The notes beneath the pieces were generated by a model that saw nothing but the letters and a program-made list of their open reading frames with translations, ran no database searches and was not told the origin of the DNA. Made by a program: the position numbers and the translations under genes. DNA of 63,403 nt, filler included, from Stramenopiles sp. TOSAG23-6 (Eukaryota), in NCBI GenBank assembly GCA_900128565.1. It is 10 parts of 10 records of this genome, joined end to end, with 100 filler letters (N's around TTAATTAATTAA, not from the genome) between each part and the next. Parts side by side here need not be neighbours in the genome. Positions count along the whole stretch, not along the records: positions 1 to 8,507 come from LT636446.1; positions 8,608 to 17,087 come from LT636447.1; positions 17,188 to 25,652 come from LT636448.1; positions 25,753 to 34,210 come from LT636449.1; positions 34,311 to 42,760 come from LT636450.1; positions 42,861 to 51,294 come from LT636451.1; positions 51,395 to 59,821 come from LT636452.1; positions 59,922 to 61,015 come from LT639736.1; 2 more parts are not named here. One strand, 5' to 3'. Below, in pieces: positions 3,886-61,015 of the stretch (its first letter is position 1; every line of letters starts with the position of its first letter).

Positions 3886-6428
3886 ATGTCGGAAGAAAAA
3901 TCAGCCCCCGCGAAGTTTCTGACACAAGCTTTGAAAACATTGACTCGTCAAAAGCCGCGTGCTTCTAAGTCTGAACAGACGAATATCTATGATACAGCAT
4001 CAGTGCCAAGTGCGATGGCAATTAGGGCTCGAATCCGGGCTGCTGATACGAATGTCTTGGAAAACAGAAAGAGTGGGCGTGATGAGTTTGGTCGTCCTCT
4101 GCAAATAAGTAGAAACGAAGCATGGGCAGAACATAGTCACAAAGCTTTGATAGCAACCCGTATAAAGGAAAGAGCAAGTAGAAAAGAAAGACGATTTCGC
4201 CGTAGAAAGAAAAACATCGCTCAGTCTGCTGCTGATAAAGAAATAGCAAAAGGTCCAGATGTTGTAACTCGCAAGGAAAGGGTAAGTGCATGGGATGGAA
4301 GTCGAAGTGATTCAGGAAGACTTCACAAGTGCCCTGAATGTAACTTTCATGGTACCAGAAGACGAGTTCGCGCTCATATAGCCACAACTCATCAACGAAA
4401 TATCGAGTCAATGCCTCGATGGGCAGAGGAAGTACCGATTTTGGATAAATTTGGAAATGTCGTCCCGCATCGGTGTGTGCTTTGTGCAAGAACCTTTTCT
4501 TCAAAACGTCACTTAGAAGTGCACGTCGATACCTCACACCCACAAATAGACCAAAGACAAATATTTTCCTGCTCAATGTGTAAATATTCCACATCATCAT
4601 CAAAAGGGCTAATGGAACATCAATTATCGCGACATCCTCGTTTAATGACGTATGAATGTACAAAACCAAACTGTGGTCAAAGATTTAGTACCGTCCGGGA
4701 ATTGCGAATACACAAAACTGCTCATAATATGGGCTCCGATGATGAAGATAACAAAAATGATAAAAATAATAAGGATCTACATCCGGAATTAAATAATGTA
4801 GCAGAATTTCCGGGTGTAAAAGAAATCAAAACTGGAGGGGAAGATGAGGCTTTCGAATACTCCAAAACTCCCATTCCTATACCCTTGCCAAGTACTGGAA
4901 TAAATCGACCAATTGATCCCCAAAAACCTCACCGATGCTCGAGATGTTTCCGAGATTTTCGTACGAAAGGTTTACTTGTGATTCATGATCGCCGGGTACA
5001 TCTAAAACGTCGTTCTGCGAAAGAAAATACTCTTAACCGTAGAGAAGAGCGCAAGTCTGAAAAGAGACAAGTCAAACAAGGATTAAAACTTCTCGATGAA
5101 GCAATTTTGTCTGTCACAAAAGAGATGAAAGCGGTAGATACAGCGAGAGGTAATAGACAACGCATTTTTCTGGAGAAAACACCTCGAATTGAGAAAACCA
5201 ATGATAATTGTAATAATAACAGTAATCGTAAACAAACATATCGAATTGAGAAAAACGATCATAATAGTAATAATAATAGTAATCTTAAACTGGATAATTC
5301 AAACAGCATCATGAGCGGAAAGTCCATAGAAACAAAAACTACAGAAGAAATTTCTAAAATGAAATTACGTTTCGACAAAATTCTTTCAGAGGAAGGTGAA
5401 AAAAATACCGCGAAAAAAACATTCGGTTGTAAATTTTGTGATAGGAGATTCAAATCAGAAAATCATCGCGATCTACACCAAATAAATTCGCATAAAGTAG
5501 AAGTGGATGAAACTCCAAACATAAAGGAAGTTAGTGAAAATATAAATAACAAACCCTATAAGTGTAATGTTTGTCATCGTAGATTCAAAATGATGCGACA
5601 TATGTATGTTTTATTTTTTTTCAAATTCGATATTTTTTTCGTACGAAATTTTGTACCTAACGATTTTTTTTAGATTTTTTTTGAAATATTTTTCCAAAAT
5701 ACATGCAACTTCATCAATCAACACATTCGGCTGTAAACCATAAACGAAGTAGCAAAATAATTAAAAAAGAAACAAACCCGCAGACTAGTGATAATACCAA
5801 AACAGAAAAACATGTGACATTTAATGATAGTGATACTATTATTCAACAGAAAAATAATGATGATAAAAAATCAAGTATCAAAGGACCTCCAAGTGTTAAT
5901 TCAAGTAAATCAAACGAAGAAAAATTTGATATAATGAGTTTAATGAAAAGAATGTCTCAAAGTGTTCCGGAAGGTGACGAGATAGCGGCTCTACAGGCAA
6001 AGATATCTACTGAAATGAATTCCATTGGATCTAGCTCTAATTTTGATATAAAATCATTACAAGGTATGTCTCATGGTGCTCAAATGCTTGGAAACTTCGG
6101 ACAAACAAATTTAGATGTGCCCACTGAGTTGCATTCAATGGATGATTTAAATATTTTCCGCTCCCGAATACAACAACAAGCCGCAGCAATGGCACCAATG
6201 ATGACAACCCTTGGCATAGATAACACAAATCCCATACAGCAAATGTTGGAAGGAAAAAACAAATATGCCATGTCTAATAAAGAAAGCAGGGCTGGTGCAC
6301 TTGCTACAGGAATGTCAAAAAAGTATAAGATGAAGTGTAGCGTTTGTCATAGAGGATTTAATTCCGAAAGGTTATGGAAATTACATGAAATGTCACACGC
6401 AAATAAGCAGCACCAAAAGCGTTTATAG
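3886..6428 (+). CDS. Multi-C2H2 zinc-finger protein (exons 3886-5603, 5705-6428)
   Basis: Many CxxC-x12-HxxxH fingers; the splice restores the finger CNVCHRRFKMMRHMQLHQSTH. Confidence 0.85.
5604..5704 (+). other. Family intron, GT-AT (101 nt)
   Basis: AT|GTATGT...TTCGTACGAAATTTTGTACCTAAC...CCAAAATACAT|G; removal gives exact C2H2 spacing. Confidence 0.85.
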
Positions 6429-6509
6429 CAAGTTTTGATGAATAAATAAATATCCTGAAAAATGATGTATAAATTTCGAATCAAATTTATTTTGCTTTTA
6501 TAGTTACGA

Positions 6510-8507: not shown

Positions 8508-8607
8508 NNNNNNNNNNNNNNNNNNNNNNNNNNNNNNNNNNNNNNNNNNNNTTAATTAATTAANNNNNNNNNNNNNNNNNNNNNNNNNNNNNNNNNNNNN
8601 NNNNNNN

Positions 8608-10287: not shown

Positions 10288-13200
10288 ATGGCGGAAATTA
10301 CATTTTTCTGTGACTTGCATGACTTTGCATCAAAGCTGAATAAGGATTGCGAGGATTTGAAACGCCGGGCAGATAATCCAAAACGGGGAAGAAGTGACAA
10401 ACACCAGGTTGGTAAATTTTGCGAAAAACTGAAGACACAAGCCAGGGAAATATTTGAAGAAATAACTTCACTTGAGGCTGCGCTTTCAATGGGAAAGGAA
10501 TCCGAGAAATTTACGGCTGCACCTGTAGCGGCTACCTCTCTTGAACTTTTTAAAAGTAATTGCGAACTAACAGACGCATTGGAGAAGCACCTTTCAGCAT
10601 ACGGCTATACTCCTTCAAATAAACCAAATGTCTTAGACGCATCTCAAAATTTATCATTCAATACATCAGATCAAAAAAATGATGACGGGTCTACTATTCT
10701 TTCGNCTGGNGTTNTTTTTTGAAAACAACGAAGACAAGGAAAATGTATATAATGGGAATGCTTCATTTCAATCTCGACAATATCTTGAAGAGTGCGTAGA
10801 TAATCTAAGTACTGTTGCTCTTCGTGGAGAAGACAGCGAAAAAGACTGTTTCGGAAGTGATATTTCTGTCGTAGGAAATAATAATATTTCAAATGGAGGT
10901 GTTGACTTATCCACTGGACTTTCTGGTTGTGTACAAAATACTCATGAGAACCTAGAAAATACGAATCATAGTATGGATGATGTAGAAAATGTAGATCGGG
11001 TAAATTATTCTCACCATAAAGGATCATCACGTGTAGATGAATATGTCTTCTCACCAAGATCTAATTCTAATGCTTCAATTAATGATGAAAATAAATTAAT
11101 TGGTAATGGCGAAGCACAACCGAGCCATTCGGTCGAAAATGAAATAGACAAAATAGAACAAATCAAAACGTCGTTTTCAATGGAAAACGTGTGTCCTTAT
11201 TCTGGAGATAAACATTCTTCTATGCAAACAGACATGATAGATTCTATGGATAATAATATTGATGACAATGCTCCTGAGCAGCAATGTACCACACCTACGG
11301 CGAACAGGGAGAAAGCAATTCACTCTGAAGTCCCACGACCATGTATGTTTTTTTTTTTCAAATTTCGAATTTTTTTTTTCATACGAAATTTTGTACCTAA
11401 CAAATTTTAGGTTTTTTTTTCAAATATTTTTCCAAAATACATCTGCAATGAAAGTTGGTTTTACTTATCAGGATGAAGAACCACTTACACCTTCTCTCGC
11501 AGATTTCGGTTTTTCTTCTTCAACGTTGACAATGCTTGGGCAAGACAAATTTTGTTCACCGAATGTGAATCAACGAACTAGTGTCCTTTCTACACACTCA
11601 CCTCACAGGAGACTTAGTGAGATGGCTAGTCCAGTGAAAACCCCTGCTGTAAGTAATTTACAACAAAGCGAATGGTCCATTGGTCCACGTACCAATAAAG
11701 CGCTAAGGCATGTAACCCCTGATGTAAAATCAGGCACCTTAAGCAATAGTCGGAATGATTTCACACAGACAACAATGTGTTTACTCAGAGCTCAGCCAAG
11801 ATTTTGTCATTCAGAGGGAGGGCGTTCAGTTTCATCCATTCCAACTCCGACGACACCAACTATGGCACAAATTTGTGGAGTTGCCTCAGGGAATAGAATC
11901 CCAGCGAATCGTAAAGCTGCTATTGAGGGTGTTGCTGCACAAAAATCATTATTTTCCAAAAGTGAAGGGAATGTATGTTTTATTTTTTTTAAATTTTAAA
12001 TTTTGAATTTATTTTTTTTTAGTACGCAATTTTGTGCCTAACGAATTTTACAAAAAAAAAAATTTTTTCACAATGCATGTACACAGCAAAAATCAAAACG
12101 TACGGTCAAATGTATTGAATAATAGTAGAGTAATGCATAAATGCCTCCCCAAAACTCCAATGATTGCTGCAAATTCAATTCCAATATCACCAATGGATAT
12201 AGATGATGTTGATTCACCAATGACACAAATTAGAAAGGATCCTGCGTTAAGTAGAATGTTGCTACCAAAAACTCCAATTTTACCGCCAATGCCAGAAATG
12301 TCTCAGAAATATGAGACTGAAACATCATCGAAAGAATATATAGACAGTATTGTAGAACCGAAAAATATATCTGAAAATATATCTGAAAATATATCTGAAA
12401 ATATATCTGAAAATATATCTGAAAATTCCCTAGTCGAGTCTCAACAAATAGATAAATCTGTCGCCACCCCAGTGAAATCGTCTGTGGTTACAACAAATCA
12501 GGATTTCGTTTCACCACTGTTATCACCATCGGATCACACGCATGATTTTGGTACACGATTAAACTTAGTCAATAATCAAGATAGCGATTCAGATGACGGA
12601 ACTATTGAGACGAAATCAAATAATCAGTTTGTTGGATTTGAGGATGATGATGAAGATATCAGACAACTTAGTGAACAGCTGGAGTCAGATGCTCGTATTG
12701 CTAAGCTGCCGAGACGATCACCACGACTTTTAAAAAAAGCATCGCAAATGAAAGTATCTTTTATGTCACCGAAACCTTCAGAGATGAAAATGGATGACGG
12801 TTCTCCTTTGGACACTTCAAAATGTACTCCTTCGCCTGTACAGAAATTACCTCGGCGATCTCCCCGTCTCTGTCGTAAAAATGCGGGGAACACTCCAAAG
12901 GCTACACGGAGAACTCCTCTATCTATTCACACATCTGAAAGTAGCAAGAAAATAAAAAAATGGCCGAAATCACCACGACTGCGCGCGAGAGCACAAGCAG
13001 AAGCTCTCGCAGAAAAAGAAGCACAAGAAGAAAAGGAACAAAGATGCAATACTTCAACGACTGACACACTGGAGAGAGTTAGTAAAGAGGAATTTTCCGG
13101 CGGTCCTAATTATTTGAAAGCTCAATTTACCCTGGAGAGTATCAATGAGGTAATTGATAGGATCAATGCTCATGGCGGCACTGTGTTTTCGACAGAATTG

Positions 13201-13684: not shown

Positions 13685-14567
13685 TTAATCATTCATATTT
13701 AGAACAGGAGCACTTTCCAATGGTAATATACTCTGACATATTGGGCACTTATGGTCCCTATTCGAGTCGCGAGCATTCTTTGCAAGTATGCAGTGTGAAA
13801 AAAAAATTTATATTAAAAATTTGTTAGGTACGGAATTTGATACAAAAAAAAATTGAAATTCAATTTTGAAAACGTACGTTCGTTCACAGTGTGTGTGCAG
13901 GGAAACTTTGCATTTTTTATTCACACATTTGAATGTATCACATACAAAATAATTACATATGACACATTCTGGACATTCAAATTCTTCCAATAGATCCTGG
14001 AGCTCTAGCAAACTACGAACGCCAAGAGTAAAACAATTATTTTCTACTCTAGAATTCTCAATCCAACCGCCCTTGGTAAGATCCCGAACTAATTTGTTCA
14101 CACGTTCGACAGAAGGAGGTCGATTTTGATCACATGATTTAGTAACTTGTTGAAGAACACGGATATTGACAACATCAACTTCGTTGATTGTACCAGACTT
14201 CTGGATAATCAACTGTACCAAACATTTGAAGAATTCTAATTGCCACTGTTCTAATTGAGTTGACCATTCTGCAAAATTATCTTTTTCTTTATTTACCAAG
14301 CACCAAAAGAGTGTATCGTCACGTTCGTGTGTCATTTTCTCCACCTTCATCTTTACCATATTTAATGTTACGTTAACACGAGTTAGACAAGGATCCAACG
14401 CTTCATCGAGATTTTCAATGTTTTCTTTGCTGTATTGATCAGATATTTCCTTAAACGCCGTCTTCAACTGACCATCACTCATAAAGCGTCTCAGCATGAA
14501 TTCCTGTATTATTGCGCAATGCACATTTGTAGACTCATCAAGCAATTTTTGAGTCGCCTNNNNACAT
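13685..14567 (-). CDS. NSE1: Nse1-like SMC5/6 subunit (winged helix + RING); start approximate because of Ns
   Basis: FTLGVRSLLEL motif and RING CVIC...HTHC...CPIC, completed only after intron removal. Confidence 0.75.
13788..13877 (-). other. Family intron, GT-AT (90 nt)
   Basis: AC|GTACGT...CCGTACCTAAC...CACACTGCAT|A; restores the terminal CPIC of the RING. Confidence 0.8.
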
Positions 14568-15687: not shown

Positions 15688-17087
15688 TTAACGTTTCTTA
15701 ATATCAGCTGATAAAACTATTTGTAATAAACATGCTAACTCAGTTGGATGGGATTCGCCAGTAATGCTGTATACATTAGGAGTTGAACATTTATTATCAC
15801 TGGGGTTTTCGGATTTTTCGGATTGTTCGGATGTACTTATTTCTGATACAACTTCTGTGACAACGTCCTCCAAATCCCCTGTATTTTTTAGTACAACAAT
15901 CGGCCAATTCATTTGAATAAATTTATATATGATATCTTTAGCCCCATCATAGTCATCACCGCCAATGACGAGGACCAAACGCTTTCTCGGACCATTTGTA
16001 GAAGAAGAAGGAGATATATTGTGAAAATTTAAAAATAAAAAAATCGTTAGGCGCAAAATTTGGTGCGAAAAATAAATTAGGTAAAAAGTTCATGTTGAAA
16101 ATGTACATGAGAGCTTCTGAATCACTTTGAAGAAAACTTCGCAGTACTTCAAAGGATTTGTTTCATTTACAAGTATTTCGTGGCTTAAAACTCCTTTGCT
16201 TGTACTTTGTGCGGTTGCATTTTCTTTCCGCACAAGCCCAAGGATAGGAACCTTATGTTTCGATGATACTTCCTTATATGCATTTTCTGCGTTTACAAAT
16301 GTTTTGCTAATAATATTGATTCGGCGCAATTGATGGTGGGCTCCTTTACTATTTGATAGTGTTTCCATCATAGCAACAGAAGACCAGCTATTACGCATAC
16401 CATCACTAATGATAATACCATCACAATATTTTGAAACAGAAATTATGCCTCGTACCATAAACTTTCGAAGAACTGTTTTTGTCTTGCGACTAGAGTCTAG
16501 ACCAATCATTGGAGACTTTCCAAGAACAACTATTACAGGGTTCGGCGGCTGATAACCGTCCAAATTAAGGTCCTTAACAAAAGTATCGAACTTCTGCGCA
16601 TCATCTAATTTCAGTTGAAGACAGCATGAATCTAATATTGGTACAAATGGTTGTTCTAATTTACCTTCACTATTGCCGGGAGATACGTGGGTAACATCAG
16701 TCTCGGATGAATTTTTGAGTGGCCTATCATAACTATTCACTTTGGGTTTTGTAATCATACCATTTGTATTGTTTTGGAGCTTTTTTAACCTTTTCAGTTT
16801 TTGCCGTTTTGGGGCTTGTAATGGTTTCTTAGATTTAATAAATGTTTCTGATTTTTCAGGGAGATGTTTTGATGGTGTAGTGTCTTTAATATGTTGCCCC
16901 TCGTCACCTTTTATAGTAACTTTATGAAGAATTATTTCACTTGAGATAGGAAGATCAGTGGATGCTTTTGGGTCTTTTGGTGCTGCAGCCATTTCTGCTT
17001 CTGCCACTTTCACTGTTGCCTTTTCCTTTGCATGTCCCTCACTAGCTACCTCTGCTTTTGCTTCTGCTTTTGCTTCTGCTTTTGCTT
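15688..17087 (-). CDS. SLOG/LSDAT (TRPM N-terminal-like) domain protein, 5' truncated
   Basis: PVIVVLG, LVLVIGGDD and WPIVVLKNTG motifs across two exons. Confidence 0.5.
16014..16106 (-). other. Family intron, GT-AT (93 nt)
   Basis: AT|GTACAT...TGCGCCTAAC...CACAATATAT|CT; joins QKLS-SPSS. Confidence 0.75.
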
Positions 17088-17332
17088 NNNNNNNNNNNNN
17101 NNNNNNNNNNNNNNNNNNNNNNNNNNNNNNNTTAATTAATTAANNNNNNNNNNNNNNNNNNNNNNNNNNNNNNNNNNNNNNNNNNNNTTGGCGCCAAAAA
17201 TGTAGGGTACCAAAATATATCTTGTACCCGAAGTCCACAGGAACCTTGCTGAGCAAGACATTGGTTGACGTAAACTATTCATCACTTACAAAAAGTTCTT
17301 GTTTTTAAATCAACAAGAAGAAAAGGAGAAAA

Positions 17333-23719: not shown

Positions 23720-25652
23720 ATGGGCGCGAAAGACAAACAAGAAGCTTTCAAGAGTTATGCTAAATCGGCGAATGCAGATAATAGTAAAGGACAAAATGAT
23801 CTTGGTGAATACTATTTAGATGGGACGCAAGCCACATTCGAGTACGAAGTTGAGGAAAGTGAAAATGATCGTATGTGGGTGGGTGAAATCTGTGAATTAG
23901 ACTCAGGTAAGATGTTTAGTATTCATGATGGAGAGAATACGATAGGATCTAGCCCTGATAATGATATATGTTTATCGGATCCCAGTGTTAGTCGAACTCA
24001 CGCTACCATAGATATTGACCTTACGTCTGGATTATTCCTGTTTAAAGATCTGAAAAGTAAAATTGGTTCTTCCATTGGTACAACGCTTACAAGTCTTTCT
24101 CGCGCTACTCCTCATCGTATGATACCTATTCCAACAAATGCATTTTTCAAAATTGGATGTGTTGTCCTACGTATAAGCTGTTTTTACCAAAGAGTCCTTA
24201 ATTTTTTCAAAAAATATAACCCCGATAAAGTTATTAATGTTCCTAAAATTGTCGAAAAGTACGCAGATCGTGAGAAAGAACTATTTGAGAATCTCTCTCA
24301 GCGATACCCTAATGCCCATATGCGGGTGGGTGAAATCTGTGAATTAGACTCAGGTAACGTGTTTATTATTCATGATGGAGTGAATACGATAGGATCTAGC
24401 CCTGATAATGATATATGTTTATCGGATCCCAGTGTTAGTCGAACTCACGCTACCATAGATATTGACCTTACGTCTGGATTATTCCTGTTTAAAGATCTGA
24501 AAAGTAAAATTGGTTCTTCCATTGGTACAACGCTTACAAGTCTTTCTCGCGCTACTCCTCATCGTATGATACCTATTCCAACAAATGCATTTTTCAAAAT
24601 TGGATGTGTTGTCCTACGTATAAGCTGTTTTTACCAAAGAGTCCTTAATTTTTTCAAAAAATATAACCCCGATAAAGTTATTAATGTTCCTAAAATTGTC
24701 GAAAAGTACGCAGATCGTGAGAAAGAACTATTTGAGATTCTCTCTCAGCGATATCCTGAGTCTTTACCAGAAGTATTAAATCCCGTACCTAATTCCTTAC
24801 GTAATATAAATGACGTGGAAAAAGCTGAACAGAACCCTAATTCTGCAAATGTATGTTTTAATTTTTTTTCAATTTTTTGTCTAATTTTTTTTTTCGTACG
24901 AAATTTTGTACTTAACGATTTTTTTTTTAAAATATTTTTCCAAAATATATGACAATTCTATTCAGCAAAATATGTCTCATTCTAGTATGTCGAAACCAAC
25001 GAAATCTTCACCTCGTATGTATGTTTTATTTTTTTTTTAACCAAAATTTAGCTAAATATTTTTCATACGAAATTTCGTACCTAACATTTTTTTTTTTTTT
25101 TTAGAAAAAAAAATTTTTGAAATATTTTTCCAAAATGTATGAGGAATGCTGCAGATATTGAACGCGAAATGCTTGCAAAATATGCTCCAAAACAAAACCA
25201 TACAACAACATCTTCTTCTGCTGCTGCTGCTGCTGATAGGTCCTACAGTACTAAATCGGCTAATTCCGGATATAGTGATGCACAATTCTATCTTGGTAAT
25301 TGTTATTATAATGGTAATGGTGTTGCTGAAGACAAAAAAGAAGCTTTCAAGTTGTTTACTAAATCGGCTAATGCTGGTAATAGTGAAGGACAAAACAGTA
25401 GTACGCCTGGTTTTAGTTTTGGTGCTCCAGCAAAGTCTGATGACGAGTCGAAAAAGAGTAGTATGCCTGGTTTTAGTTTTGGTGCTAATAGTACTGCACC
25501 TGCAGCAACTCCAGCCGCTGCACCATCAGTCGGAGGATTTCAATTTGGGGCTACTCCAGCAACTACTGCCACACCAGTAACAACAACGGCTGCTACCTCA
25601 TCAAACGCGTTTACATTTGGTGCTAATAGTNCTACAGCTGCACCAGCGACTG
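23720..25652 (+). CDS. Mosaic protein: SEL1 fragment, 2x FHA unit, SEL1, FG-repeat tail (2 family introns; runs into gap)
   Basis: IGSSPDNDICLSDPSVSRTHA (FHA) twice; AQFYLGNCYYNGNGV (SEL1); GFSFGA repeats. Confidence 0.65.
23873..24757 (+). repeat. Near-identical 447-bp tandem duplication (FHA + helical domain)
   Basis: Units start at 23873 and 24320. Confidence 0.9.
24851..24950 (+). other. Family intron, GT-AT (100 nt)
   Basis: AT|GTATGT...GTACTTAAC...CCAAAATATAT|G; next exon is open. Confidence 0.75.
25019..25140 (+). other. Family intron, GT-AT (122 nt)
   Basis: AT|GTATGT...core...CCAAAATGTAT|G; joins SPR-MRNAAD. Confidence 0.75.
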
Positions 25653-25751
25653 NNNNNNNNNNNNNNNNNNNNNNNNNNNNNNNNNNNNNNNNNNNNTTAA
25701 TTAATTAANNNNNNNNNNNNNNNNNNNNNNNNNNNNNNNNNNNNNNNNNNN

Positions 25752-40703: not shown

Positions 40704-41966
40704 ATGACAAGAATGAATAATATGTTTTCAAAATCATTTTTACATCTCAAGGATGACAAGATGAAGCACCGTCGTTCTGTAAACTACAGTAAGCAACATG
40801 TGGCTCTTTTACTGTGTGTTTTGCAATTTATCAATATTATAATTTGGTATACGTGTATACGTAAAGGAGTTCACAATGTGAAAAAGGGTTTACGTTATTC
40901 TTCGCCTATGACACTACCGGTCAAGGAATATACACCCAAAGATGAATATTTTATGCAGCATGATACACGTATACGAGATTATCGATTAGTGGAACACTCT
41001 GGATTAGGCCATTTTGCAGTTCATGGTGATTCAAATGAATGTCATTCAGGTAAATGGAAGTTTTGTTATATTAAGGGAAACACACGACTCGTCAAAGCTG
41101 AACTTTCAACTATTGGTTTTATTAATGACGCCGCAATATCACCAAATGTATCGGAAAGTATTGGTGACTATGAAATAATATGGACCCTCGCTGACATTGC
41201 AGATTCAAACAACTATTTCCATTATCTTAATTTGAAATCTTATGTACTTTTTTCCACCCACAAACTTTTAGTTTTTTTTTTTTTTTTGGTAAAAAAATTT
41301 CATACCTAACAAATTTCAAATTTCTGAAATATGTTTTCTTTGGCATCAAAAGATTAATCATTTTCCAGGAATGTATGAAATAGGTAATAAATTTCATTTA
41401 AACAAAAACCTAAGAGAAGCACAAGGAAAATATGGGACTTTAATTTATAATTTTTTTCCTATTTCATATCAAATGCCAACTGATTATGAACAGTTAAAAG
41501 CTGTTTTCTTGGAATCTGAAAAAAAACAAATGTGGATTACGAAAAATGGTTCAAAAGATAGAGGGGAAGGGATACAAATGATTCAGAATATCTCAGAAGT
41601 AGACAAAACTTCAAGTACTACAGTAGTACAAAAATACATTCAATACCCTTATTTATTATATTCATACAAATTCACACTACGATGTTACATCCTTCTCACA
41701 TCGATAAATCCTCTACGATTGCATCTTTCTCGAATTGGATTTGCTCATCTTGCCACAGAAAAATACAATTCTGATCCTACATTTTACAATCATAAATATA
41801 TGCATCTAACAAACCCAGATATAAATGGTGACCGGGAGCCGTATAAATCAAATCCAAGGCCTTGGTATTGGAGTCTTCAAGAAGTCTTGCACTATATGAA
41901 AAAACATAGTTCACTTGAACCTCAAGATGTTTTTGATTCAATATCCAAAGTGGCACTAAAAACTAT
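40704..41966 (+). CDS. Tubulin-tyrosine ligase-like (TTLL) protein, C-terminus unresolved
   Basis: YQKINHFPGM (after splice), WITK...RGEGI, VVQKYI.YP, KFTLRCYILL and HLTN motifs. Confidence 0.85.
41244..41346 (+). other. Family intron, GT-AT (103 nt)
   Basis: AT|GTACTT...CATACCTAAC...TTTGGCAT|CAA; restores the TTLL motif Y-QKINHFPG. Confidence 0.85.
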
Positions 41967-42072
41967 GTACGTTTTATTTTTTTCAATTTTTAGTCTAATT
42001 TTTTTTTCGTACGAAATTTTGTACCTAACAATTTTTTTTAGATTTTTTTTTAAATATTTTTCCAAAATACAT
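41967..42072 (+). other. Family intron (3' end 42070 or 42072)
   Basis: AT|GTACGT...core...CCAAAATACAT. Confidence 0.65.
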
Positions 42073-42709
42073 TAAGTATACTCAATGCTCGTGTGTCTGC
42101 TGCTCCAGTGAAGCCGACTTCTGTTTTATCGTCACTTGTTGAAGAATTCGAAAAAGCTGTAGAAAAAGCTGCTCATTTTGATGTATATCAAAAAGGTAAT
42201 TTACGATTGATCAAATCACGAAAACGAGATATTTCAGAAATGGACTGTCTGTCAAATTTGATATCAAAAATAGTTACAGATATCGTAAATTGTCGAAAAC
42301 AAAAGACAAAATTTAGTTATATTTCGTTGTCAGAAAAATGCAATGTTGTTTTAGCTCAAATAAAGAGGAGCAATGTCATTTCACGATTTTCCGGAATCAG
42401 CGATATAATAAGGCAAATAAGTCGGTTAGCTTTCAAGTATAAAAGATTATTAGAAATGAGTTTCCTTGCTGCTTCATTTTTAGGTGAATCGGGAGAAATG
42501 TATATAGATGATAGTTTGACGGTACATGTACGTTTTCACAAAAACAAAAAAAATCAAATTTAATTCTTTTCATACGAAATTTTGTACCTAACGATTTTTT
42601 TTTAAATATTTTCATAATACATGATGGGGGTTTGAATAATAATGTTTTAATGAAATCCACGCCTCAAAGTCAAAGTCGAATGTCTAGTCCTGGCTACGAT
42701 AAAAGGAAT
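42073..42709 (+). CDS. Hypothetical exons (continuation of TTLL or a different gene)
   Basis: Open frame LSILNARVSAAP...LTVH-DGGLNN; next family intron starts at 42710 and runs into the gap. Confidence 0.45.
42528..42622 (+). other. Family intron, GT-AT (95 nt)
   Basis: AT|GTACGT...core...CATAATACAT|G. Confidence 0.75.
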
Positions 42710-51238: not shown

Positions 51239-51286
<48 letters not shown>

Positions 51287-51294
51287 ACTGGTTC
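51239..51294 (+). tRNA. trnF: tRNA-Phe (GAA), 3' truncated by gap
   Basis: GCCGCGATAGCTCAGTTGGGAGAGCGTCAGACTGAAGATCTGAAGGTCACTGGTTC. Confidence 0.92.
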
Positions 51295-51393
51295 NNNNNN
51301 NNNNNNNNNNNNNNNNNNNNNNNNNNNNNNNNNNNNNNTTAATTAATTAANNNNNNNNNNNNNNNNNNNNNNNNNNNNNNNNNNNNNNNNNNN

Positions 51394-53068
51394 NTTTTTA
51401 TTTTTTGTATTTTTTGTATTTTTTGTATTTTTTGTATTTTTTGTATTTTTTGTATTTTTTTCTGTTTCAGTAGGGTTAGGGTTTGCATGTGCAAATAATC
51501 GATCAGCTAAAATTCGACCAGCAGCAATTGCAACAGGGGTTAACTCCCATTGACCACATACATCACCCAATGCGTATACATTTTTTGTACCTAAACAATT
51601 TGCATATTGATCAACTTCTATATGTCCATGTAGAGTACAAAAATAGTTCAAAGTATTTTGAAAATTGTTAGGTACAAAAAAAAAATTTTGAAAAAAAAAA
51701 AAATGTTTAGGTACAAAATTTCGTACGAAAAAAACATTTGAAAAAAAAATTTGAAATTTTTTTTGAAAATTTGAAATTGAAACACATACATAATCAGTGA
51801 GAGAAATATTTGCAGATGTAACATCAAGTGGTTGAGTCATTGGTTTTCGACCAATTGCCCAGATAATACAATCAACATCCAAAGGATCATATTTTTCATT
51901 ATTTACAAAAACACGAAATTCAGATTTTTTTTCATTATTTTTTTCATTTTTTTTTTCATTATTTTTTTCATTATTTTTTTCATGATCAAAACGTTCAATA
52001 CTTGAGACACCATTTGAATCACGCATAATAGAAACACCACTTTTTTCTAATCCTTCTTCTACAGCTCTTGACAACATGTATCGTAAAAAATATTTTTTTT
52101 TAATTGTTAGGTATGAAATTTCAAAAAAAAAAAAAATTTCAAAAAAAATTTTAAATTTTTTTTTAAATTATTAGGTACAAAATTTCGTATGAAAAAAAAA
52201 ATTGAAAAAAAAAAAAAAAATCATAATGAAAACAAACATATCATCAAAAGAACGTAAAACACCAGATTTTCTAATTATTAATGATGTTTCAGCTCCAAGA
52301 GCACTTAAAACACCAGCTAACTCAACAGCAATATATCCAGCACCAACAATAGCTACTTTTTTAGGCATTTCATTTAATTCAAAAAAACCATCACTAGTGA
52401 TTCCATGTATTGTAAAAAAAAATTTCAAACATTTTCAAAAAAAAATTGTTAGGTACAAAATTTCGTACGAAAAAAAAAAATTCAAAAAAAAATTTTAAAA
52501 AAATTAACCCTAACCCTAATTATTGTTAAAGACGTACATGCCGTGCTCCAGGAATTTCATTTGGTATTTCTGGATATCCACCAACAGCAATAAGAATATG
52601 ATCTGCAGTATATTCGCCATCACCATCCATTGATACTTTATTTGGAGATAAGAAAGTAGCTTCACCTCGAAGTAGTTCAATACCAGATGTGTCTAGATTT
52701 CGTTCATAAATTCCATTTAAACGTTTTATATATGCATCTCTTCTTTTTTTCATATCTTTCCAATTGAATTGTACATCTGGAACATCAAATCCAAGCTGAG
52801 CGGAATCATGTAATAACTCAGCAAATGAAGCAGCGTTCCACATGACTTTTTTAGGAACACAACCCACATTTACACACGTTCCACCCATCACAGTCTTTTC
52901 AATTAAACCAACACGAGCTCCATGATCAGCCGCACGTCGGGCAGAAGCCATACCACCACTTCCACCACCAATCACTAAATATTCAAAATGTCGATTAGGT
53001 AATGAACTAACACAACGATAAGATTGCTTTGATAGAAGTATTCGACGCATTGAAGAGAATGTGTACAT
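51394..53068 (-). CDS. GSR: Glutathione reductase (3 family introns; 3' end lost in gap)
   Basis: [27 protein letters not shown] and [11 protein letters not shown]; splices restore [21 protein letters not shown] and TDY-GHIEVD. Confidence 0.93.
51628..51789 (-). other. Family intron, GT-AT (162 nt, two core copies, stop-free 3n)
   Basis: AT|GTATGT...CTCTACAT|GGA. Confidence 0.85.
52076..52237 (-). other. Family intron, GT-AT (162 nt, two core copies)
   Basis: AT|GTTTGT...CGATACAT|G. Confidence 0.85.
52405..52537 (-). other. Family intron, GT-AT (133 nt)
   Basis: AT|GTACGT...core...TACAATACAT|GGA. Confidence 0.87.
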
Positions 53069-56301: not shown

Positions 56302-59300
56302 TTATTTTTTTTCATTTTGTAGTATTTCATGTAATATATCTTTTGCTTGAAGTAAATTTTGTAATAAATGACTTTTATCATCCTCTATAATAAATGCCAT
56401 TCCAATATCAGGAAAAACATCACGTAATGGAGTATAATATTTCATACCAAGATTTTGTGTTTTTTTTCTTTTCTCCATTAATCCTCTTAAAAATAAATTT
56501 CGTGTTTTATTTTTTTTCTCTGTATTTCTTTTCACTTTTTCATAACATATTGGAATATCCTTGTGTAATTTACCTTGTAAAAAATATTGCCGCATTTCAA
56601 ACGTTGTAAATATACTGTGAAAAAATATTTCAAAAAATTTTAAATTTTTTTGTTAGGTACAAAATTTCGTATGAAAACAACAAAGAAAGGTTAAGAAAAA
56701 TTAATTTCAAAGACATACATGGACCTTTTTCAATATGTTCATCATTTAAATACCACCAAAATGCATTTCTTTTATTTATCATACTAGGGTTAGGGATATG
56801 ATTTTCTGCAATTTGAAAGGATATTAGAAGAGAGCTTAATACATTACGCAATGTTGTATTTTTTGTATTTTGTATTGATCTAGTAGGGTTAGGGTTTGAT
56901 GTTGTATGTAATGTTTTTTTTCCCATAGTATATTGAGATGCAATAAAGTTATTTCGATGTTGTAATTTTCGTAAATGTAATTCAAGTTTTTTATTTTCCA
57001 TTTTTATATTTTTATGTTTTGTTTCATCATTTGTTGTATCATTTATTATATATTTCATATTGTTTGTATTTTCTGGTAAATGCCATCGAACTTCATTTGT
57101 ATCTTTGTTATAATAGTATTGTCTATGTGAAGAATCAAATGCTATACACCACATTTCATTATTATTATTATCATTATTATTATAATCATTATTATTATTA
57201 TCATTGTTATCATTATTATTATTATCAATAGTATTATTATTATTATTATCAGAAATAATATTTTGAAATTTTTTTGTATTATATTTATATCTTTTTACTT
57301 TTTTAGATTTTACATTTTTATTTCGTGTGAGTAGTCTTTGATGTATTTTATGTATAGATTGTTGATTGGCGACATCAATAATATTGACTTTATCATTACA
57401 ATCACTTTTAAATTCATCATTTTGATTATGTATTTGTTTTTTATATTCAACTATTGTATCAATTTCATATTTATTTGATTTATTTGATTCATTTGATATT
57501 GTATCAATTTCATATTTATTTGATTTTTTTGATTCATTTGATATTGTATCAATTTCATATTTATTTGATTCATTTGATATTGTATCAATTTCATATTTAT
57601 TTGATTCATTTGATATTTTTTCTTGAGTTTGACATTGTAAATGACGTTTTGGATTATTAGTTTTTGTTTCAAGTACAAAATATTGGTATAAACAATCCGA
57701 TTTCATTTCATCATTTAATTCTCTTTGTTTTTCATTATTTCGTGTTGTAAACCATTGTTTATGTTTTTGTTCAAAATATTCAATATATTCAACAATTTGA
57801 TGTTGTACAAAACAATTTGTATCGGAACCTATATTTAATAACCATTTTAATACTTGAATATAAGACGATGTTTCATTATTTAGATTATTCTCTGAAATTG
57901 CTTTTTTATAACATATATCTAAAACAGTCTCGCCATGACACGTGGCACAATCTTTAGAAATACACCATTTTTTTATAGTATTTTTGGGGGTATTTGGGTT
58001 TAGTGCTGCAGTACTATCTGTAGAAGTCTCACATAATGTTGTACATGACTCGTATAAAAGTTTTGCAATATTTAAAAATCGATTTCCACCAGATACATGT
58101 ATTGTGAAACAATATTTTTTTTTTGAAAAAAAATTGTTAGGTACAAAATTTCGTACGAAAATATTTTTTTAAAAAAAAATTAAAAAAAATAAAAACATAC
58201 AGCTATATGTAATGGTGTTTCATATTTTCCATTCCGAGCTTCAGTATCCGCACCATGACCAATAAGAAGCTGAATTAATTTCAAATTACCTGAAATAATG
58301 GCAACATGAAGTGAAGTTGTCCAATAAGGTGGTAATCGTATATTGATATACTGTTGAAAAATATTTCAAGTTTTTTTTTTAAATGTTTGTTAGGTACAAA
58401 ATTTCGTACGAAAAAAAAAATTATAATTTTAAAAAAAATATTTTGATGAAAATGTACATTAATCCATTCACTCTATAAATTTGATTTTTAAATTTCACTT
58501 TTTCATTTAAAATTGGTTTTAATTTTGAATATTCTTGATCAAGACGACCACTAGGATTATCGTGGCATTGTAATAATAAACGAATTTTATCTACATCTTG
58601 TTTTTTTGCACGGGTACATATATTATGAAATAATATTAAAAAAAATATTTTTTTAAATGTTAGGTACAAAATTTCGTACGAAAAAAAAAATTTGAAATTT
58701 CAAAAAAAAAATTTTAAATTTTCAATGAAAACGTACAATATACCATCATATCTTGTGTATATCTATGGAGTAAACCTGCTCGTAGTCCACCTTTAACCAT
58801 TTGATTTTGAATTTTAATGGCACAACTATTTAAAGTTTGATATAAATTTCGACATTTTTTATATCTGAAAAGTCTTTGTAATTGTATCAAATAATATTTT
58901 TTTCTATATTCCTCTATTTTATATACTATAGTTTGAGATAATATTTCAAAAATTTTAAATTTTTGTTAGATATGAAATTTTCTACGAAAAAAAATTAAAA
59001 AAAATTTTAAGTTTTTAATGTTTTAAGTTTTGTTAGGTACAAAATTTCGTACGAAAAAAATAAAATGAAAAAAAAATTCATACCAAAAACATACATACAA
59101 ATTGACGTACAAAACGTTGAATAACAAAAATCGATTGTTTTGCACGTTTATATCGCAACAGTTTTGTCCATTTTCTTATATTTTTTTGTACCAAAAGACA
59201 AGAAGATAATCGTTTAATTGCATCATATACTGTGAAAAAAATATTTCAAAATAAAATATTTTTTCGTTAGGTACAAAATTTCGTACGAAAACCAAAAAAA

Positions 59301-59441
59301 AAAAAATTCAAAATTCAAAAAATTGAAATGAAAACGTATATATTTTGTTACTTTTGTAAACCACAAATTTGAAATTGAATTAATATGCAAATAATCATGA
59401 ATTTTCAAATTAATGATTTTTCTAGCTGAATATCCTCTTAT
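56302..59441 (-). CDS. IQ-ankyrin-WW-GYF-like multidomain protein with at least 6 family introns
   Basis: IQRFVRQF, TSLHVAI/TPLHIAV, W...D...RQYYYN...VRWHLP and WWYL...GPFTTFEMRQYF motifs; exon phases consistent. Confidence 0.75.
56610..56718 (-). other. Family intron, GT-AT (109 nt)
   Basis: AT|GTATGT...core...CACAGTATAT|TT; restores the GYF motif GPF. Confidence 0.85.
58097..58200 (-). other. Family intron, GT-AT (104 nt)
   Basis: CT|GTATGT...core...CACAATACAT|G; restores ankyrin TPLHIA-V. Confidence 0.85.
58346..58457 (-). other. Family intron, GT-AT (112 nt)
   Basis: AT|GTACAT...core...CAACAGTATAT|C. Confidence 0.8.
58618..58736 (-). other. Family intron, GT-AT (119 nt)
   Basis: TT|GTACGT...core...CATAATATAT|G. 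Confidence 0.8.
58921..59098 (-). other. Family intron, two core copies (boundaries ambiguous)
   Basis: TT|GTATGT...ATAGTATAT|AAA. Confidence 0.6.
59225..59339 (-). other. Family intron with ATACGT 5' end (115 nt)
   Basis: AT|ATACGTTTT...core...CACAGTATAT|G. Confidence 0.55.
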
Positions 59442-59633
59442 ATGTGTTGTAAAAAGATATATCAAATTTGAGTTTTTTTTTGTTAGGTATGAAATTTTGT
59501 ACTGAAAAACCAAAAAAAAAAAAAAAATGTTTAGGTACAAAATTGTGTATGAAAAAAAAATTACCAAAAAAAAAAATTACCAAAAAAAAAAACAAATTTT
59601 TGTTAGGTATAAAATTGTGTACGAAAAAAATAC
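59442..59633 (-). other. Family element with three core copies; flanking frames do not join cleanly
   Basis: Three TACCTAA(A)C cores; ends CAACACAT. Confidence 0.5.
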
Positions 59634-59921
59634 ATTTTTGGTGATAAAATATATCCAAATTCAAAACCATCCTCGACATTATCCGCATTCTGCATACACA
59701 TTTCAACAAAGTCTTGATATTCTTGGATATACGAAATCGAATTCTTTGTAGTACCATTAGGATTAGTTTTTTTTTCATCAGATTTATTTGTACCAAATTC
59801 TGTACCTAACGAATTTTTATTNNNNNNNNNNNNNNNNNNNNNNNNNNNNNNNNNNNNNNNNNNNNTTAATTAATTAANNNNNNNNNNNNNNNNNNNNNNN
59901 NNNNNNNNNNNNNNNNNNNNN

Positions 59922-61015
59922 AGTTAGCTATATCCTCTTGTGGAGATATGTCATCGACAAAGTTAGCTATATCCTCAGTAGTATCGACAGTTATCTTCAT
60001 CATGTCAGATTCGGAATTTATACATGTGTTTTCATCTATCGAACTATTCGCTTCATTATCTAGCGAATTTATTAAAGTGGAAATATCTCTTACGGCAACA
60101 TTGGCAAAAAAAGCCGCAGTTTTAACGGCGTATCCAGACTTTGCATTTTGCTGCTGTCTTTTAAAATTAGAATCTACCTCGCGTATAGTTGCGCGGGATA
60201 TAAGAGNTGTCAGTTGAGATGTTCGGTTAATGTATCTTTTTTCTAATATATCCCATTGACATTTAATTTTGTGTACAACAGATTTCTTAATTTTAGTGCA
60301 GGATTGCAATGAACGAAATAAATTGATTTTTACTTTATCGATATTCGATTCAATACTCACACATTGTTCAGTGTAAGTACGCATTGCATTCTCTAAAAAC
60401 ATAATCTGTTGTTCTATATCTTTGATATAATTCAGTCGGAATTCTTTCATATAGTGCCGATGCACTATAGTCCCTACATCTTCCATAGTCTGTAGACTGT
60501 TGATATTTTCTGTGTGACTTTCCATTGCTGCTTTTGCAGCTGAGGATTTTAAAAGCTTCTCAAGAATTTCACAGCGAAACCTCTCCAATTGTTGCGGTGC
60601 TTCTTCAACTTGAGATAAAAACGATTCATGCTCATCTTCATGCTTATGCATAGGGATACTTCCATGATTAGCATGAAGTGAAGATATTTGAAATTCTATT
60701 CGAAGGAGTCCAGCTTCATGTTTGTGAAAAAATATTTAAAATTTGAAATTCGTTAGGTACGGAATTTTCTATGAAAAAAAAAAGATTTGAAATTAATGAT
60801 GAAAACATACAGCCTTACGGACTCGACTTTCAGCACGACTAACATTTTGTGTTATTTCGTTCAAATCGGTAGTCAAAATATCATCTTCTTCATCACTACT
60901 CTCGTCAATATCTTCAAAATCAAAAGGAATTTCATTTATATCTTGGTTTATATCTTGGTCGGTAACTGGATCTTCAAAATTATTTATATCTTGGTGGGTA
61001 ACTGGATCTTCAAAA
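59922..61015 (-). CDS. Coiled-coil protein internal fragment (contig repeated at 61116-62209 and 62310-63403)
   Basis: Open frame across the intron: ESRVRKA-EAGLLRIEF...MHKHEDE. Confidence 0.6.
60718..60810 (-). other. Family intron, GT-AT (93 nt; copies at 61912-62004 and 63106-63198)
   Basis: CT|GTATGT...CCGTACCTAAC...CACAAACAT|G. Confidence 0.8.

What the first reader, a model, noticed from the sequence alone, without database searches (positions are those of the whole stretch)
5604..60810. Genome dominated by a repetitive family of non-canonical GT-AT introns
Seen in sequence: about 27 complete, mutually similar 90-190 nt inserts interrupt about 13 unrelated genes, always in the gene's sense orientation. 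They begin GTA(T/C)(G/A)T, carry a TTTCGTACGAAATTTTGTACCTAAC core and end in YAT (CAT or TAT), with no terminal AG. GT..AT excision restores conserved motifs: C2H2 finger spacing (5604), TTLL YQKINHFPG (41244), glutathione reductase [12 protein letters not shown] and YGHI (52405, 52076, 51628), GYF GPF (56610), ankyrin TPLHIAV (58097) and anoctamin SLFRTVDRLKL (39112). Many junctions can slide because of flanking AT repeats. Copies with non-AT exon ends (33797, 58097, 58618, 60718) and the variable bases before the final AT (AC/GC/AT/GT) leave GT-AT as the only register shared across these copies. Established: spliceosomal introns are almost all GT/GC-AG or AT-AC; introner bursts (Micromonas, Aureococcus) and non-canonical-rich genomes (Amoebophrya, Fritillaria) are known. 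Inference: an introner-like expansion handled by a spliceosome that accepts, or prefers, an AU 3' splice site. I know of no lineage with GT-AT as the majority class, but I cannot search to confirm that.
Basis: partly seen in the sequence, partly recalled or inferred. Interest (0 to 1): 0.95.

Follow-up and report, generated by a model that had tools for sequence, protein, structure and literature searches.

The report
Repeated introns ending in AT
About 26 copies of one short AT-rich insert interrupt a dozen genes of an uncultured marine protist and must be cut out as GT...AT rather than GT...AG to restore the proteins, a splicing rule so far described mainly in a few larvacean tunicates; no RNA data could be checked here.

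Summary
I curated 26 complete copies (90-172 nt, 18% GC) of one insert family, plus 7 partial or unclear ones. The window is a chain of about 8.5-kb contigs. All 26 lie in the sense orientation of the reading frame they interrupt. 25 start with GT and 25 end with AT; one ends with AC. Cutting them out in that register joins the flanking frames in 25 of 26. The junctions align without gaps in glutathione reductase (3 junctions) and anoctamin (2). No in-frame AG acceptor exists except in one copy. An AT-AC register puts a stop codon into one copy and breaks the ankyrin TPLHIA motif in another. A 610/611-identical public protein carries a source label that I read as a MAST-3 stramenopile, so this is not a tunicate. 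It rests on sequence only, because the one read-mapping call was lost to a filter. The claim of no precedent is too strong. Fritillariid larvaceans already show YAY-ended, transposon-derived introns with 3'-AT as the commonest end. I rate it a new variant of a known kind, in a new lineage and unusually uniform.

The parts
5604..5704 (+). Insert A in a C2H2 zinc-finger gene. 101 nt, GT-AT, exon end AT.
   Evidence: Excision restores CNVC-x12-H-x3-H. If the insert is kept, a stop follows.
11343..11442 (+). Insert B. 100 nt, GT-AT.
   Evidence: Frames join.
11973..12078 (+). Insert C, upstream of the SKA1-like exon. 106 nt, GT-AT.
13788..13877 (-). Insert W in the Nse1 RING-like domain. 90 nt, GT-AT, exon end AC. 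No sliding of the junction is possible.
   Evidence: The frame runs on into ...HKCPICQ.
16014..16106 (-). Insert V. 93 nt, GT-AT.
24851..24950 (+). Insert D in an FHA-domain gene. 100 nt, GT-AT.
25019..25140 (+). Insert E in the same gene, 68 nt downstream of D. 122 nt, GT-AT.
33005..33097 (-). Insert U. 93 nt, GT-AT. It has no in-frame stop, so its removal is not forced by the frame.
33797..33892 (-). Insert T. 96 nt, GT-AT, exon end CA.
34054..34158 (-). Insert S. 105 nt, GT-AT. It begins 13 nt after a likely start codon.
34636..34739 (-). Insert R in an endonuclease/exonuclease/phosphatase-family gene. 104 nt, GT-AT.
38880..38992 (-). Insert X2 in the anoctamin gene. 113 nt, GT-AC, exon end AA.
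   Evidence: HEQ|DVLQVL aligns without a gap to homologue P0123.
39112..39203 (-). Insert X1 in the anoctamin gene. 92 nt, GT-AT.
   Evidence: GEGAT|SLFRTVDRLKL aligns without a gap to P0123.
41244..41346 (+). Degenerate family member in the TTLL gene. 103 nt, GTACTT...GGCAT.
   Evidence: The next exon starts at QKINHFPG, which matches residue 62 of TTLL7.
41967..42072 (+). Insert F in the TTLL gene. 106 nt. The GT-AT register breaks the frame. Removing 104 nt (GT-AC) or 107 nt would restore it.
42528..42622 (+). Insert G in the TTLL gene. 95 nt, GT-AT.
51628..51789 (-). Insert Q in glutathione reductase. 162 nt, GT-AT, with the branch-like motif duplicated.
   Evidence: LTDY|GHIEVD aligns without a gap.
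52076..52237 (-). Insert P in glutathione reductase. 162 nt, GTTTGT...ACAT.
   Evidence: SFDD-M-LSRAV aligns without a gap.
52405..52537 (-). Insert O in glutathione reductase. 133 nt, GT-AT. It contains TTAGGGTTAGGG.
   Evidence: The numbering in human glutathione reductase runs on from 173 to 174 across the junction.
56610..56718 (-). Insert N in the GYF/WW/ankyrin gene. 109 nt, GT-AT.
58097..58200 (-). Insert M. 104 nt, GT-AT, exon end CT.
   Evidence: Excision gives TPLHIA|VSGGN. A register shifted by -2 gives TPLHID.
58346..58457 (-). Insert X3. 112 nt, GT-AT.
58618..58736 (-). Insert K. 119 nt, GT-AT, exon end TT.
   Evidence: A register shifted by -2 creates an in-frame TAA.
58923..59094 (-). 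Insert X4. 172 nt, two cores. GT-AT, or GT-AG with an intron 3 nt shorter.
59225..59339 (-). Insert I. 115 nt. It starts ATACGT and ends TATAT.
59443..59640 (-). Complex copy with three tandem cores. The 5' boundary is unclear.
60718..60810 (-). Insert H. 93 nt, GT-AT, exon end CT. The same contig is repeated at 61912-62004 and 63106-63198.

Best explanation
The inserts are introns made by a proliferating intron-generating element (an introner-like family) in a marine stramenopile that a source label marks as MAST-3.

Each copy carries three conserved blocks:
- a strong donor, GTAYGTTTT;
- a 25-nt core that ends in a branch-site-like CCTAAC, 31-49 nt from the 3' end in most single-core copies;
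- a T-run followed by a 3' block, (C/T)A(C/A)AAT-A-Y-AT.

It is removed from the transcript by cuts before the GT and after the final YAT (once YAC). The acceptor dinucleotide is therefore AU, or rarely AC, instead of AG.

The AT that precedes the donor in 20 of 26 copies repeats the AT that ends the intron. The simplest reading is a 2-bp target duplication or a target preference. On that reading the element brings its own donor, and the acceptor sits at the duplicated site, as in introners that co-opt a splice site from the target duplication.

Shown: the family, its orientation, its termini, and the exact mRNA product for the junctions checked by homology.

Inferred: that the removal happens at the RNA level, that the spliceosome does it, the exact chemical register, and the way the copies spread.
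For: - Family. 22 core matches against 0 in shuffles. Mean pairwise identity is 0.65, maximum 0.89, against 0.54 for shuffled copies. In one subfamily the segments outside the signal blocks are 0.70-0.73 identical. The 5' variant is linked to the 3' block variant, Fisher p=0.023.
- Orientation. 26 of 26 are in sense, binomial p=3e-8.
- Need for removal. 18 of 26 lengths are not multiples of three. All but two copies (Q and U) put a stop in frame if kept.
- Product. Excision is in phase in 25 of 26, p=2e-11 against a chance of 1/3. Alignments run without gaps across three glutathione reductase junctions and two anoctamin junctions. After excision the anoctamin gene is one 1,186-codon frame.
- No AG acceptor. 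17 of 26 copies have no AG between the first CTAA(C/T/A) match, which in some copies lies upstream of the core, and the 3' end. Only X4 has an in-frame AG.
- Register. GT-AT is common to all copies. W allows no sliding at all. AT-AC gives a stop codon in K and puts D in place of the conserved ankyrin A in M.
- Recent gain. The closest homologue with a continuous frame (P0123, 50% identical) has no interruption at X1 or X2.
- Precedent. YAY-ended, transposon-derived introns removed by a U2-type spliceosome are described in PMC13326754 (sections 4, 21 and 30 read) and PMC11282704 (passages). Introners that carry the donor and co-opt the acceptor from the duplication are described in PMC9860276 (passages).
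Against: - No transcript evidence of any kind was obtained.
- Copy F (41967-42072) breaks the frame in the GT-AT register.
- Copy X4 could be an ordinary GT-AG intron.
- For 20 of 26 copies the junction can slide, so the register rests on six copies with a non-AT exon end and on uniformity across the family.
- The terminal complementarity (ATGTA/TACAT) shows no covariation beyond shuffled partners: 160 pairs observed against a mean of 161.7.
- Predicted folds are not more stable than shuffles: six copies gave z-scores from -2.2 to +0.3.
- The direct repeat is only 2 bp, and the third base agrees in about 7 of 26 by my reading. A transposon origin is therefore not demonstrated.
- A conserved upstream TAT in the AAATATTTTT block is not used as the acceptor. 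How the acceptor is chosen remains unexplained.
Confidence: 0.62

Rival explanations
1. The family is spliced by a transformed minor (U12-type) spliceosome. This machinery naturally tolerates non-AG acceptors and picks the acceptor by its distance from a nearby branch site. The conserved block 5-15 nt before the 3' end would then be the true branch region.
For: - The donor conservation is extended, +1 to +9 GTAYGTTTT. It agrees with the U12 donor GTATCCTTT/GTATCTTTT at 7 of 9 positions, by my own comparison with the motif printed in preprint 10.1101/2020.10.12.336362.
- A conserved motif lies immediately before the acceptor.
Against: - Position +5 is G in 21 of 26 and +6 is T in 26 of 26, where U12 donors have CC or CT.
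- The TCCTTAAC-like CCTAAC lies 31-49 nt or more from the 3' end, not 10-15 nt.
- A long T-tract is present.
- No snRNA was found in the window, and no genome is held to look for U11, U12 or U6atac.
Confidence: 0.15
2. These are the organism's ordinary, old introns. They look alike only because the species has unusually long and strict splicing signals. They are not copies of a mobile element.
For: - The best conserved parts are just those expected of signals: the donor, the CTAAC and the 3' block.
- Overall identity is only 0.65.
- Earlier notes of this scan found such a case in Ostreococcus (e1-566034).
Against: - A 25-nt core containing a 12-nt palindrome is far longer than a branch signal.
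- Pairs reach 0.84-0.89 identity over the whole length.
- Segments outside the signals are 0.70-0.73 identical within a subfamily, and the 5' and 3' variants are linked.
- Several copies carry internal tandem duplications of the core.
- X1 and X2 are absent from the closest homologue.
- Even on this reading the acceptor would still be AT.
Confidence: 0.1
3. The inserts are removed at the DNA level, like the internal eliminated sequences of ciliates. Alternatively they are not removed at all, and the interrupted genes are pseudogenes or assembly artefacts.
For: - The inserts are short, AT-rich and bounded by a short direct repeat and a short inverted repeat.
- Two copies (Q and U) can be read through.
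- One copy (F) breaks the frame.
Against: - DNA excision does not depend on orientation, yet 26 of 26 copies are in sense.
- A spliceosomal-type donor and a branch motif are conserved.
- 25 of 26 copies are in phase, and the flanking exons keep conserved residues, which does not fit pseudogenes.
- 26 independent copies with the same termini cannot all be assembly errors.
Confidence: 0.05

Closest known systems
Non-canonical, MITE-derived introns of Fritillariidae larvaceans (Fritillaria borealis, F. pellucida)
   Same: - A YAY triplet forms the last three intron bases. Here it is CAT 15, TAT 10 and CAC 1 of 26.
- A YAY triplet often lies just before the donor. Here TAT 9 and CAT 6 of 26.
- 3'-AT is the commonest intron end, and 3'-AC is also used.
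- A pyrimidine tract is kept.
- The introns are thought to come from transposon insertions with a target duplication.
Sources: PMC13326754 section 21 and PMC11282704 passages.
   Different: - The host is a stramenopile by source label, not a chordate.
- The donor here is a near-invariant canonical-looking GTAYGT, whereas AG/AC and AG/AT are the commonest classes in F. borealis.
- All copies seen here belong to one family with a 25-nt core.
- The termini are far more uniform, 25 of 26 against no class above 18% in F. borealis.
- There is no RNA evidence here.
Introners of Micromonas, Aureococcus, Chrysochromulina, dinoflagellates and others
   Same: - Many similar short introns lie in unrelated genes.
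- They are AT-rich relative to the exons.
- The element carries one splice site, and the other lies at the target duplication. The Chrysochromulina type carries the 5' site and co-opts the 3' site (PMC9860276 passages).
   Different: - Those families use GY-AG boundaries.
- Here the co-opted site is AT.
- The direct repeat is only 2 bp and the inverted repeat about 5 bp.
Introner elements and non-canonical introns of Amoebophrya
   Same: Repeated introns whose ends carry inverted repeats and whose boundaries are overlapped by short direct repeats, with non-GT-AG boundaries (PMC7789003 passages).
   Different: - Amoebophrya shows no preferred dinucleotide pair and has 8-20 nt inverted repeats that form hairpins.
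- Here the pair is almost fixed, and no significant hairpin is predicted.
Non-canonical U12-type introns (GT-AT subclass, e.g. Physarum)
   Same: GT-AT boundaries, an extended conserved donor, and a relaxed acceptor dinucleotide (preprint 10.1101/2020.10.12.336362, passages).
   Different: - The donor differs at +5 and +6.
- The branch-like motif lies far from the acceptor.
- In Physarum GT-AT is a small minority: 17% of the 0.8% of introns that are non-canonical.

Membership tests
Introner / introner-like element | Many sequence-similar introns in unrelated genes of one genome | tested here: met
   26 complete copies in about 12 genes. Identity reaches 0.89, mean 0.65, against 0.54 for shuffled copies.
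Introner / introner-like element | Copies are spliced out of transcripts | not testable with these tools
Removal is inferred only from restored frames and homology.
Introner / introner-like element | Positions are lineage-specific (recent gain) | tested here: met
   Tested for two copies only. The 50%-identical homologue P0123 is continuous across X1 and X2.
Introner / introner-like element | Transposon hallmarks: target duplication and terminal inverted repeats | tested here: inconclusive
   The AT direct repeat is present in 20 of 26 but is only 2 bp. The termini show 5-bp complementarity without covariation.
Fritillaria-type YAY introns | Last three intron bases are YAY | tested here: met
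   26 of 26: CAT 15, TAT 10, CAC 1 (minus the row I rejected).
Fritillaria-type YAY introns | YAY triplet immediately upstream of the 5' splice site | tested here: inconclusive
   15 of 26 are YAY (TAT 9, CAT 6). Five more are AAT.
Fritillaria-type YAY introns | Host is a fritillariid larvacean with duplicated U2AF subunits | tested here: not met
   A 610/611-identical protein bears the source label GSMAST32. The named glutathione reductase and anoctamin neighbours include stramenopiles. U2AF could not be examined.
Canonical U2-type GT-AG intron | AG at the 3' end | tested here: not met
   No copy ends in AG in the register that homology supports. Only X4 has an in-frame AG, 3 nt upstream.
U12-type intron | Donor [AG]TATCC(T)TT | tested here: not met
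   Position +5 is G in 21 of 26 and +6 is T in 26 of 26.
U12-type intron | Branch motif TCCTTAAC 10-15 nt from the acceptor | tested here: not met
   CCTAAC lies 31 nt or more from the 3' end.
U12-type intron | U11, U12, U4atac and U6atac snRNAs present | not testable with these tools
   No genome is held. Rfam found nothing in the window.
Ciliate-type internal eliminated sequence | Excision is independent of orientation and the element is bounded by TA | tested here: not met
   26 of 26 are in sense. The flanking repeat is AT, not TA.

The most novel reading that the evidence does not exclude
A free-living marine stramenopile lineage (MAST-3 by source label) has changed its standard intron acceptor from AG to AU. 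GT-AU introns, seeded by one introner family, would then be the majority class genome-wide. This would be a second origin of a YAY-type 3' splice-site rule, independent of the larvacean tunicates, and would be coupled here to a fully canonical donor.
Probability: 0.4. Interest if true: 0.85.

Novelty: new variant of a known kind. Interest (0 to 1): 0.72.

Why it matters
If transcripts confirm the junctions, this would be an independent case of a spliceosome that reads AU as its acceptor. Because the donor stays canonical, acceptor recognition could be studied alone: U2AF35/U2AF65, Slu7, Prp8, and the pairing of the first and last intron bases.

It would also show that the target site of an intron-making element can set a genome's splice rule.

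There is a practical side. Public gene models for this organism appear to miss these introns. The one model I could inspect starts downstream of two of them and removes two conserved coding stretches as GT-AG 'introns'. Proteomes of this uncultured group, as used in phylogenomics and metatranscriptome mapping, may therefore be fragmented. In three MAST genomics papers I found no discussion of intron types. A term search gave 'intron' 2, 0 and 0 times in their main texts, with 'splice' once, in a reference title.

Tried and rejected
- RNA and DNA read evidence. The look-up of sequencing runs listed one DNA run holding 0.80 of the sampled words. It also listed two metatranscriptome runs holding 0.06-0.07. 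These small shares were never laid and are evidence of nothing.
- Whole genome. None is held, so I made no genome-wide copy count and no search for snRNAs or splicing factors.
- Metagenome scans. A protein scan with the 459-aa exon found no relative. The 19-nt core found 3 contigs in metagenome contigs, 0 in viral contigs and 1 in genome contigs (a Bacteroidales MAG). I read the three metagenome hits; they are unrelated chance matches. I did not read the genome-contig hit.
- Homologues of the 459-aa exon, sought to catch spliced transcripts or gene models. None was found in the near length range. The representative library gave only weak hits over a short stretch overlapping the WW-domain match (11 at E<=0.001, none at 1e-10).
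- Larvacean hypothesis. I considered that the window was a Fritillaria-like tunicate, because of the YAY signature and the human-like glutathione reductase. I rejected it.
- A 38-nt candidate intron outside the family, at 34624-34587. I rejected it because removing it together with insert R gives a stop (and my frame check). It reads as coding.
- Rfam and tRNA scans found nothing.
- The atlas search on anoctamin was uninformative for taxonomy.
- Terminal-stem covariation and RNA folding gave no support for a structure-guided mechanism.
- Earlier findings of the scan held nothing on this genome or this sequence.
- Literature. Searches for 'GT-AT' returned only surveys in which GT-AT is a rare class. 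I did not see the full text of Henriet et al. 2019, which I cite through PMC11282704 and PMC13326754.


Full report
WHAT THE WINDOW IS

The window is not one stretch of a chromosome. It is a chain of contigs of about 8.5 kb each, sorted by length and joined by N44-TTAATTAATTAA-N44 spacers. It ends with one 1,194-bp contig present three times. GC content is about 34%.

The window carries ordinary eukaryotic genes:
- anoctamin
- a TTLL-type ligase
- glutathione reductase
- Nse1
- an SKA1-like protein
- a PHO4-type phosphate transporter
- a choline-transporter-like protein
- C2H2, FHA, BTB-WD40, LRR and ankyrin/WW/GYF proteins

Many of these are long uninterrupted frames, up to 1,374 codons. No whole genome is held for the window.

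WHOSE GENOME

The 740-codon anoctamin frame is 98% identical to one Logan-derived protein. It is 610 of 611 residues identical, apart from two gaps, to a EukProt protein whose source name begins GSMAST32. I read that label as a MAST-3 marine stramenopile. This is a reading of a label, not a phylogeny.

The named neighbours of the anoctamin and of glutathione reductase include oomycetes, brown algae and ochrophytes among others. That fits but does not prove the assignment. I had first suspected a larvacean tunicate (see the comparison below), and this result rejects that idea.

THE OBSERVATION

The 25-nt core occurs 22 times at up to 3 mismatches and never in 100 shuffles. A profile built from 21 copies, followed by curation, gives 26 complete copies of 90-172 nt and 18% GC. 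A further 7 loci are partial, cut by contig ends, or unclear.

All 26 complete copies lie in the sense orientation of the frame they interrupt (p=3e-8).

Termini:
- Donor side: G25/A1, T26, A25, Y26, G21, T26, then TTT.
- Acceptor side: a T-run, then (C/T)A(C/A)AAT, A/G, C/T, A26, T25/C1.
- The exon base after the intron is G in 16 of 26.
- The two exon bases before the intron are AT in 20 of 26.

THE INSERTS MUST BE REMOVED, AND THE PRODUCT IS DEFINED

- 18 of 26 lengths are not multiples of three. All copies except Q and U carry an in-frame stop.
- Cutting before GT and after the terminal YAT (YAC in X2) puts the flanking frames in phase in 25 of 26. This gives p=2e-11 against a chance of one in three. 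Some boundaries (X1, X2, X3, the TTLL copy, I, N) were fixed after looking at the family consensus and at frames, so the count is not fully blind.
- Glutathione reductase: the three junctions give ...[14 protein letters not shown]......RSFDD-M-LSRAV... and ...LTDY|GHIEVD.... These align without gaps to eight homologues. The numbering of human glutathione reductase runs on from 173 to 174 across the first junction.
- Anoctamin: removing X1 (92 nt) and X2 (113 nt) fuses three pieces into one 1,186-codon frame. That frame aligns without gaps across both junctions to a 50%-identical homologue, P0123. P0123 is itself continuous there, so these two introns are not shared.
- Other junctions restore a C2H2 finger spacing (A), the start of the TTL domain at QKINHFPG, an ankyrin TPLHIA|V and the CPxC end of the Nse1 RING-like domain.

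NO ORDINARY ACCEPTOR IS AVAILABLE

17 of 26 copies have no AG at all between the first CTAA(C/T/A) match, which in some copies lies upstream of the core, and the 3' boundary. Among the rest only X4 has an AG in frame, 3 nt before the AT, so X4 may be a normal GT-AG intron. For the five junctions verified by homology, none of the sliding-equivalent registers is GT-AG.

WHICH REGISTER

Because the exon usually ends in AT, 20 copies can slide. For these copies GT-AT, TG-YA and AT-NN give the same mRNA.

The AT-AC reading, the only other known class, is open to just 10 of 26 copies. In K it creates an in-frame TAA, and in M it replaces the conserved ankyrin alanine by aspartate. Copy W allows no sliding. 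T, X2, M, K and H allow only small slides. The only shift common to all copies is zero.

A one-base shift (TG...YA) would fit 23 of 26 copies. It is disfavoured only by uniformity and by the resemblance of GTAYGT to a standard donor. I therefore take GT-AT as the register, with moderate confidence.

Exceptions:
- X2 ends in AC at the homologous position.
- Copy I begins ATACGT.
- Copy F breaks the frame as GT-AT and would need 104 nt (GT-AC) or 107 nt removed. This may be a real alternative site, an assembly indel or a decaying gene. The TTLL gene also lacks a recognisable C-terminal catalytic part.

FAMILY OR STRICT SIGNALS

The rival view is that these are ordinary introns sharing long signals. 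Against it:
- The core is 25 nt long and contains a 12-nt palindrome.
- Pairs reach 0.84-0.89 identity over the whole length.
- Segments outside the signals are 0.70-0.73 identical within a subfamily, and the 5' and 3' variants are linked (p=0.023).
- Several copies carry tandem duplications of the core.

The family is not young, since mean identity is 0.65. I found no canonical intron in the window. The one candidate outside the family (34624-34587) fails the frame test.

MECHANISM: WHAT IS INFERRED

The layout is donor GTAYGT, then CCTAAC, then a pyrimidine tract of about 31-49 nt, then Y-A-N. From my own knowledge, this is the layout of a yeast-like U2-type intron with U in place of the final G.

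The terminal ATGTA/TACAT complementarity could bring the ends together. It shows no covariation, and the folds are not significant.

The AT before the donor repeats the AT that ends the intron. This fits a 2-bp target duplication that supplies the acceptor, as in introners that co-opt a splice site from the duplication (PMC9860276 passages). A target preference of reverse splicing would look the same.

What selects the last YAT rather than the conserved TAT about 15-20 nt upstream is not explained. The conserved 3' block is the obvious candidate signal.

A U12-like mechanism is a real rival. [quoted passage not shown] However, the donor differs at +5 and +6, and the branch-like motif is too far from the acceptor.

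COMPARISON WITH WHAT IS KNOWN

The closest match is the non-canonical intron system of fritillariid larvaceans. According to PMC13326754 (sections 4, 21 and 30 read) and PMC11282704 (passages):
- A YAY triplet precedes the donor and forms the last three intron bases.
- 3'-AT is the most frequent end in F. pellucida (44%) and F. borealis (34%).
- The pyrimidine tract is retained.
- The introns are attributed to MITE insertions with target duplications.
- They are removed by a U2-type spliceosome with duplicated U2AF subunits.

The differences here are the host, the canonical donor, the single family and the near-uniform termini.

Amoebophrya introners (PMC7789003 passages) and hemistasiid diplonemid introns (PMC12621601 section 5) have diverse termini and are further away.

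In the MAST genomics papers I could search, the main texts do not discuss intron types or splice sites. In PMC5778133 'intron' occurs twice and 'splice' never. In PMC12614181 neither word occurs. In PMC8163842 'intron' never occurs and 'splice' occurs once, in the title of a cited paper. Supplements were closed, so a note there cannot be excluded.

LIMITS

- There is no RNA evidence.
- Only about 60 kb was examined.
- 'Genome dominated' is an extrapolation.
- The taxonomic assignment rests on a source label.

VERDICT

The novelty is a new, unusually clean variant of transposon-derived non-canonical introns, in a new lineage.

Noticed in passing
window 8508-8607, 17088-17187, 25653-25752, 34211-34310, 42761-42860, 51295-51394, 59822-59921, 61016-61115, 62210-62309: The window is a chain of contigs joined by N44-TTAATTAATTAA-N44 spacers. 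The contigs are sorted by falling length. The last 1,194-bp contig (59922-61015) is repeated exactly at 61116-62209 and 62310-63403.
   Followed up: yes
window 36678-38900 (-) versus protein P0122: The public gene model for the anoctamin starts at an internal Met downstream of inserts X1 and X2. It also removes two stretches of 120 and 123 nt as GT-AG 'introns'. The first removed stretch is conserved coding sequence in homologue P0123. The annotation seems blind to the GT-AT introns.
   Followed up: partly
window 45270-45323 (+): A 54-nt 5' half of a family copy (GTTCGT...CGTAT, exon end TAT) lies in frame and without a stop inside the 750-codon BTB-BACK-WD40 frame, between the BTB and BACK domains. 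It could be an exonised remnant or a short GT-AT intron.
   Followed up: no
window 34587-34624 (-): A 38-nt stretch with intron-like ends (GTACGTTT...CTACAATATAT) lies 11 nt after insert R. It must be read as coding (VRLNEIKSVLQY) for the frame to stay open. It is possibly a relic of a collapsed copy.
   Followed up: partly
window 41347-42760 (+): The TTLL gene matches the TTL domain only up to profile position 216 of 292. The usual C-terminal ATP-grasp part is not seen in any frame before the contig end. The same gene holds insert F, which breaks the frame.
   Followed up: partly
window about 52503-52517 (-), inside insert O: Two telomere-like TTAGGG units (TTAGGGTTAGGGTTA) lie inside an intron copy.
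   Followed up: no
window about 51243-51294 (+): A sequence resembling the 5' part of a tRNA (GCGATAGCTCAGTTGGGAGAGCG...) runs into the contig end. ARAGORN reports no tRNA, presumably because the sequence is cut.
   Followed up: no
window 59783-59821 (+): A partial core lies in the antisense direction to the minus-strand frame 59422-59805, at a contig end. It is the only copy-like stretch that may be antisense within a coding frame.
   Followed up: no
window 51395-51460 (-) and 51850-51930 (-): The glutathione reductase carries low-complexity insertions, EKNNEKNN... in a loop and TKNTKNTKN... at the contig end, that are absent from homologues.
   Followed up: no
window 5637-5648 and every core copy: The first 12 nt of the core, TTTCGTACGAAA, are a perfect DNA palindrome. 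The following GTACGA...UUGUAC forms a small hairpin in 4 of the 6 folds. This could be a protein-binding site for mobilisation rather than a splicing signal.
   Followed up: partly
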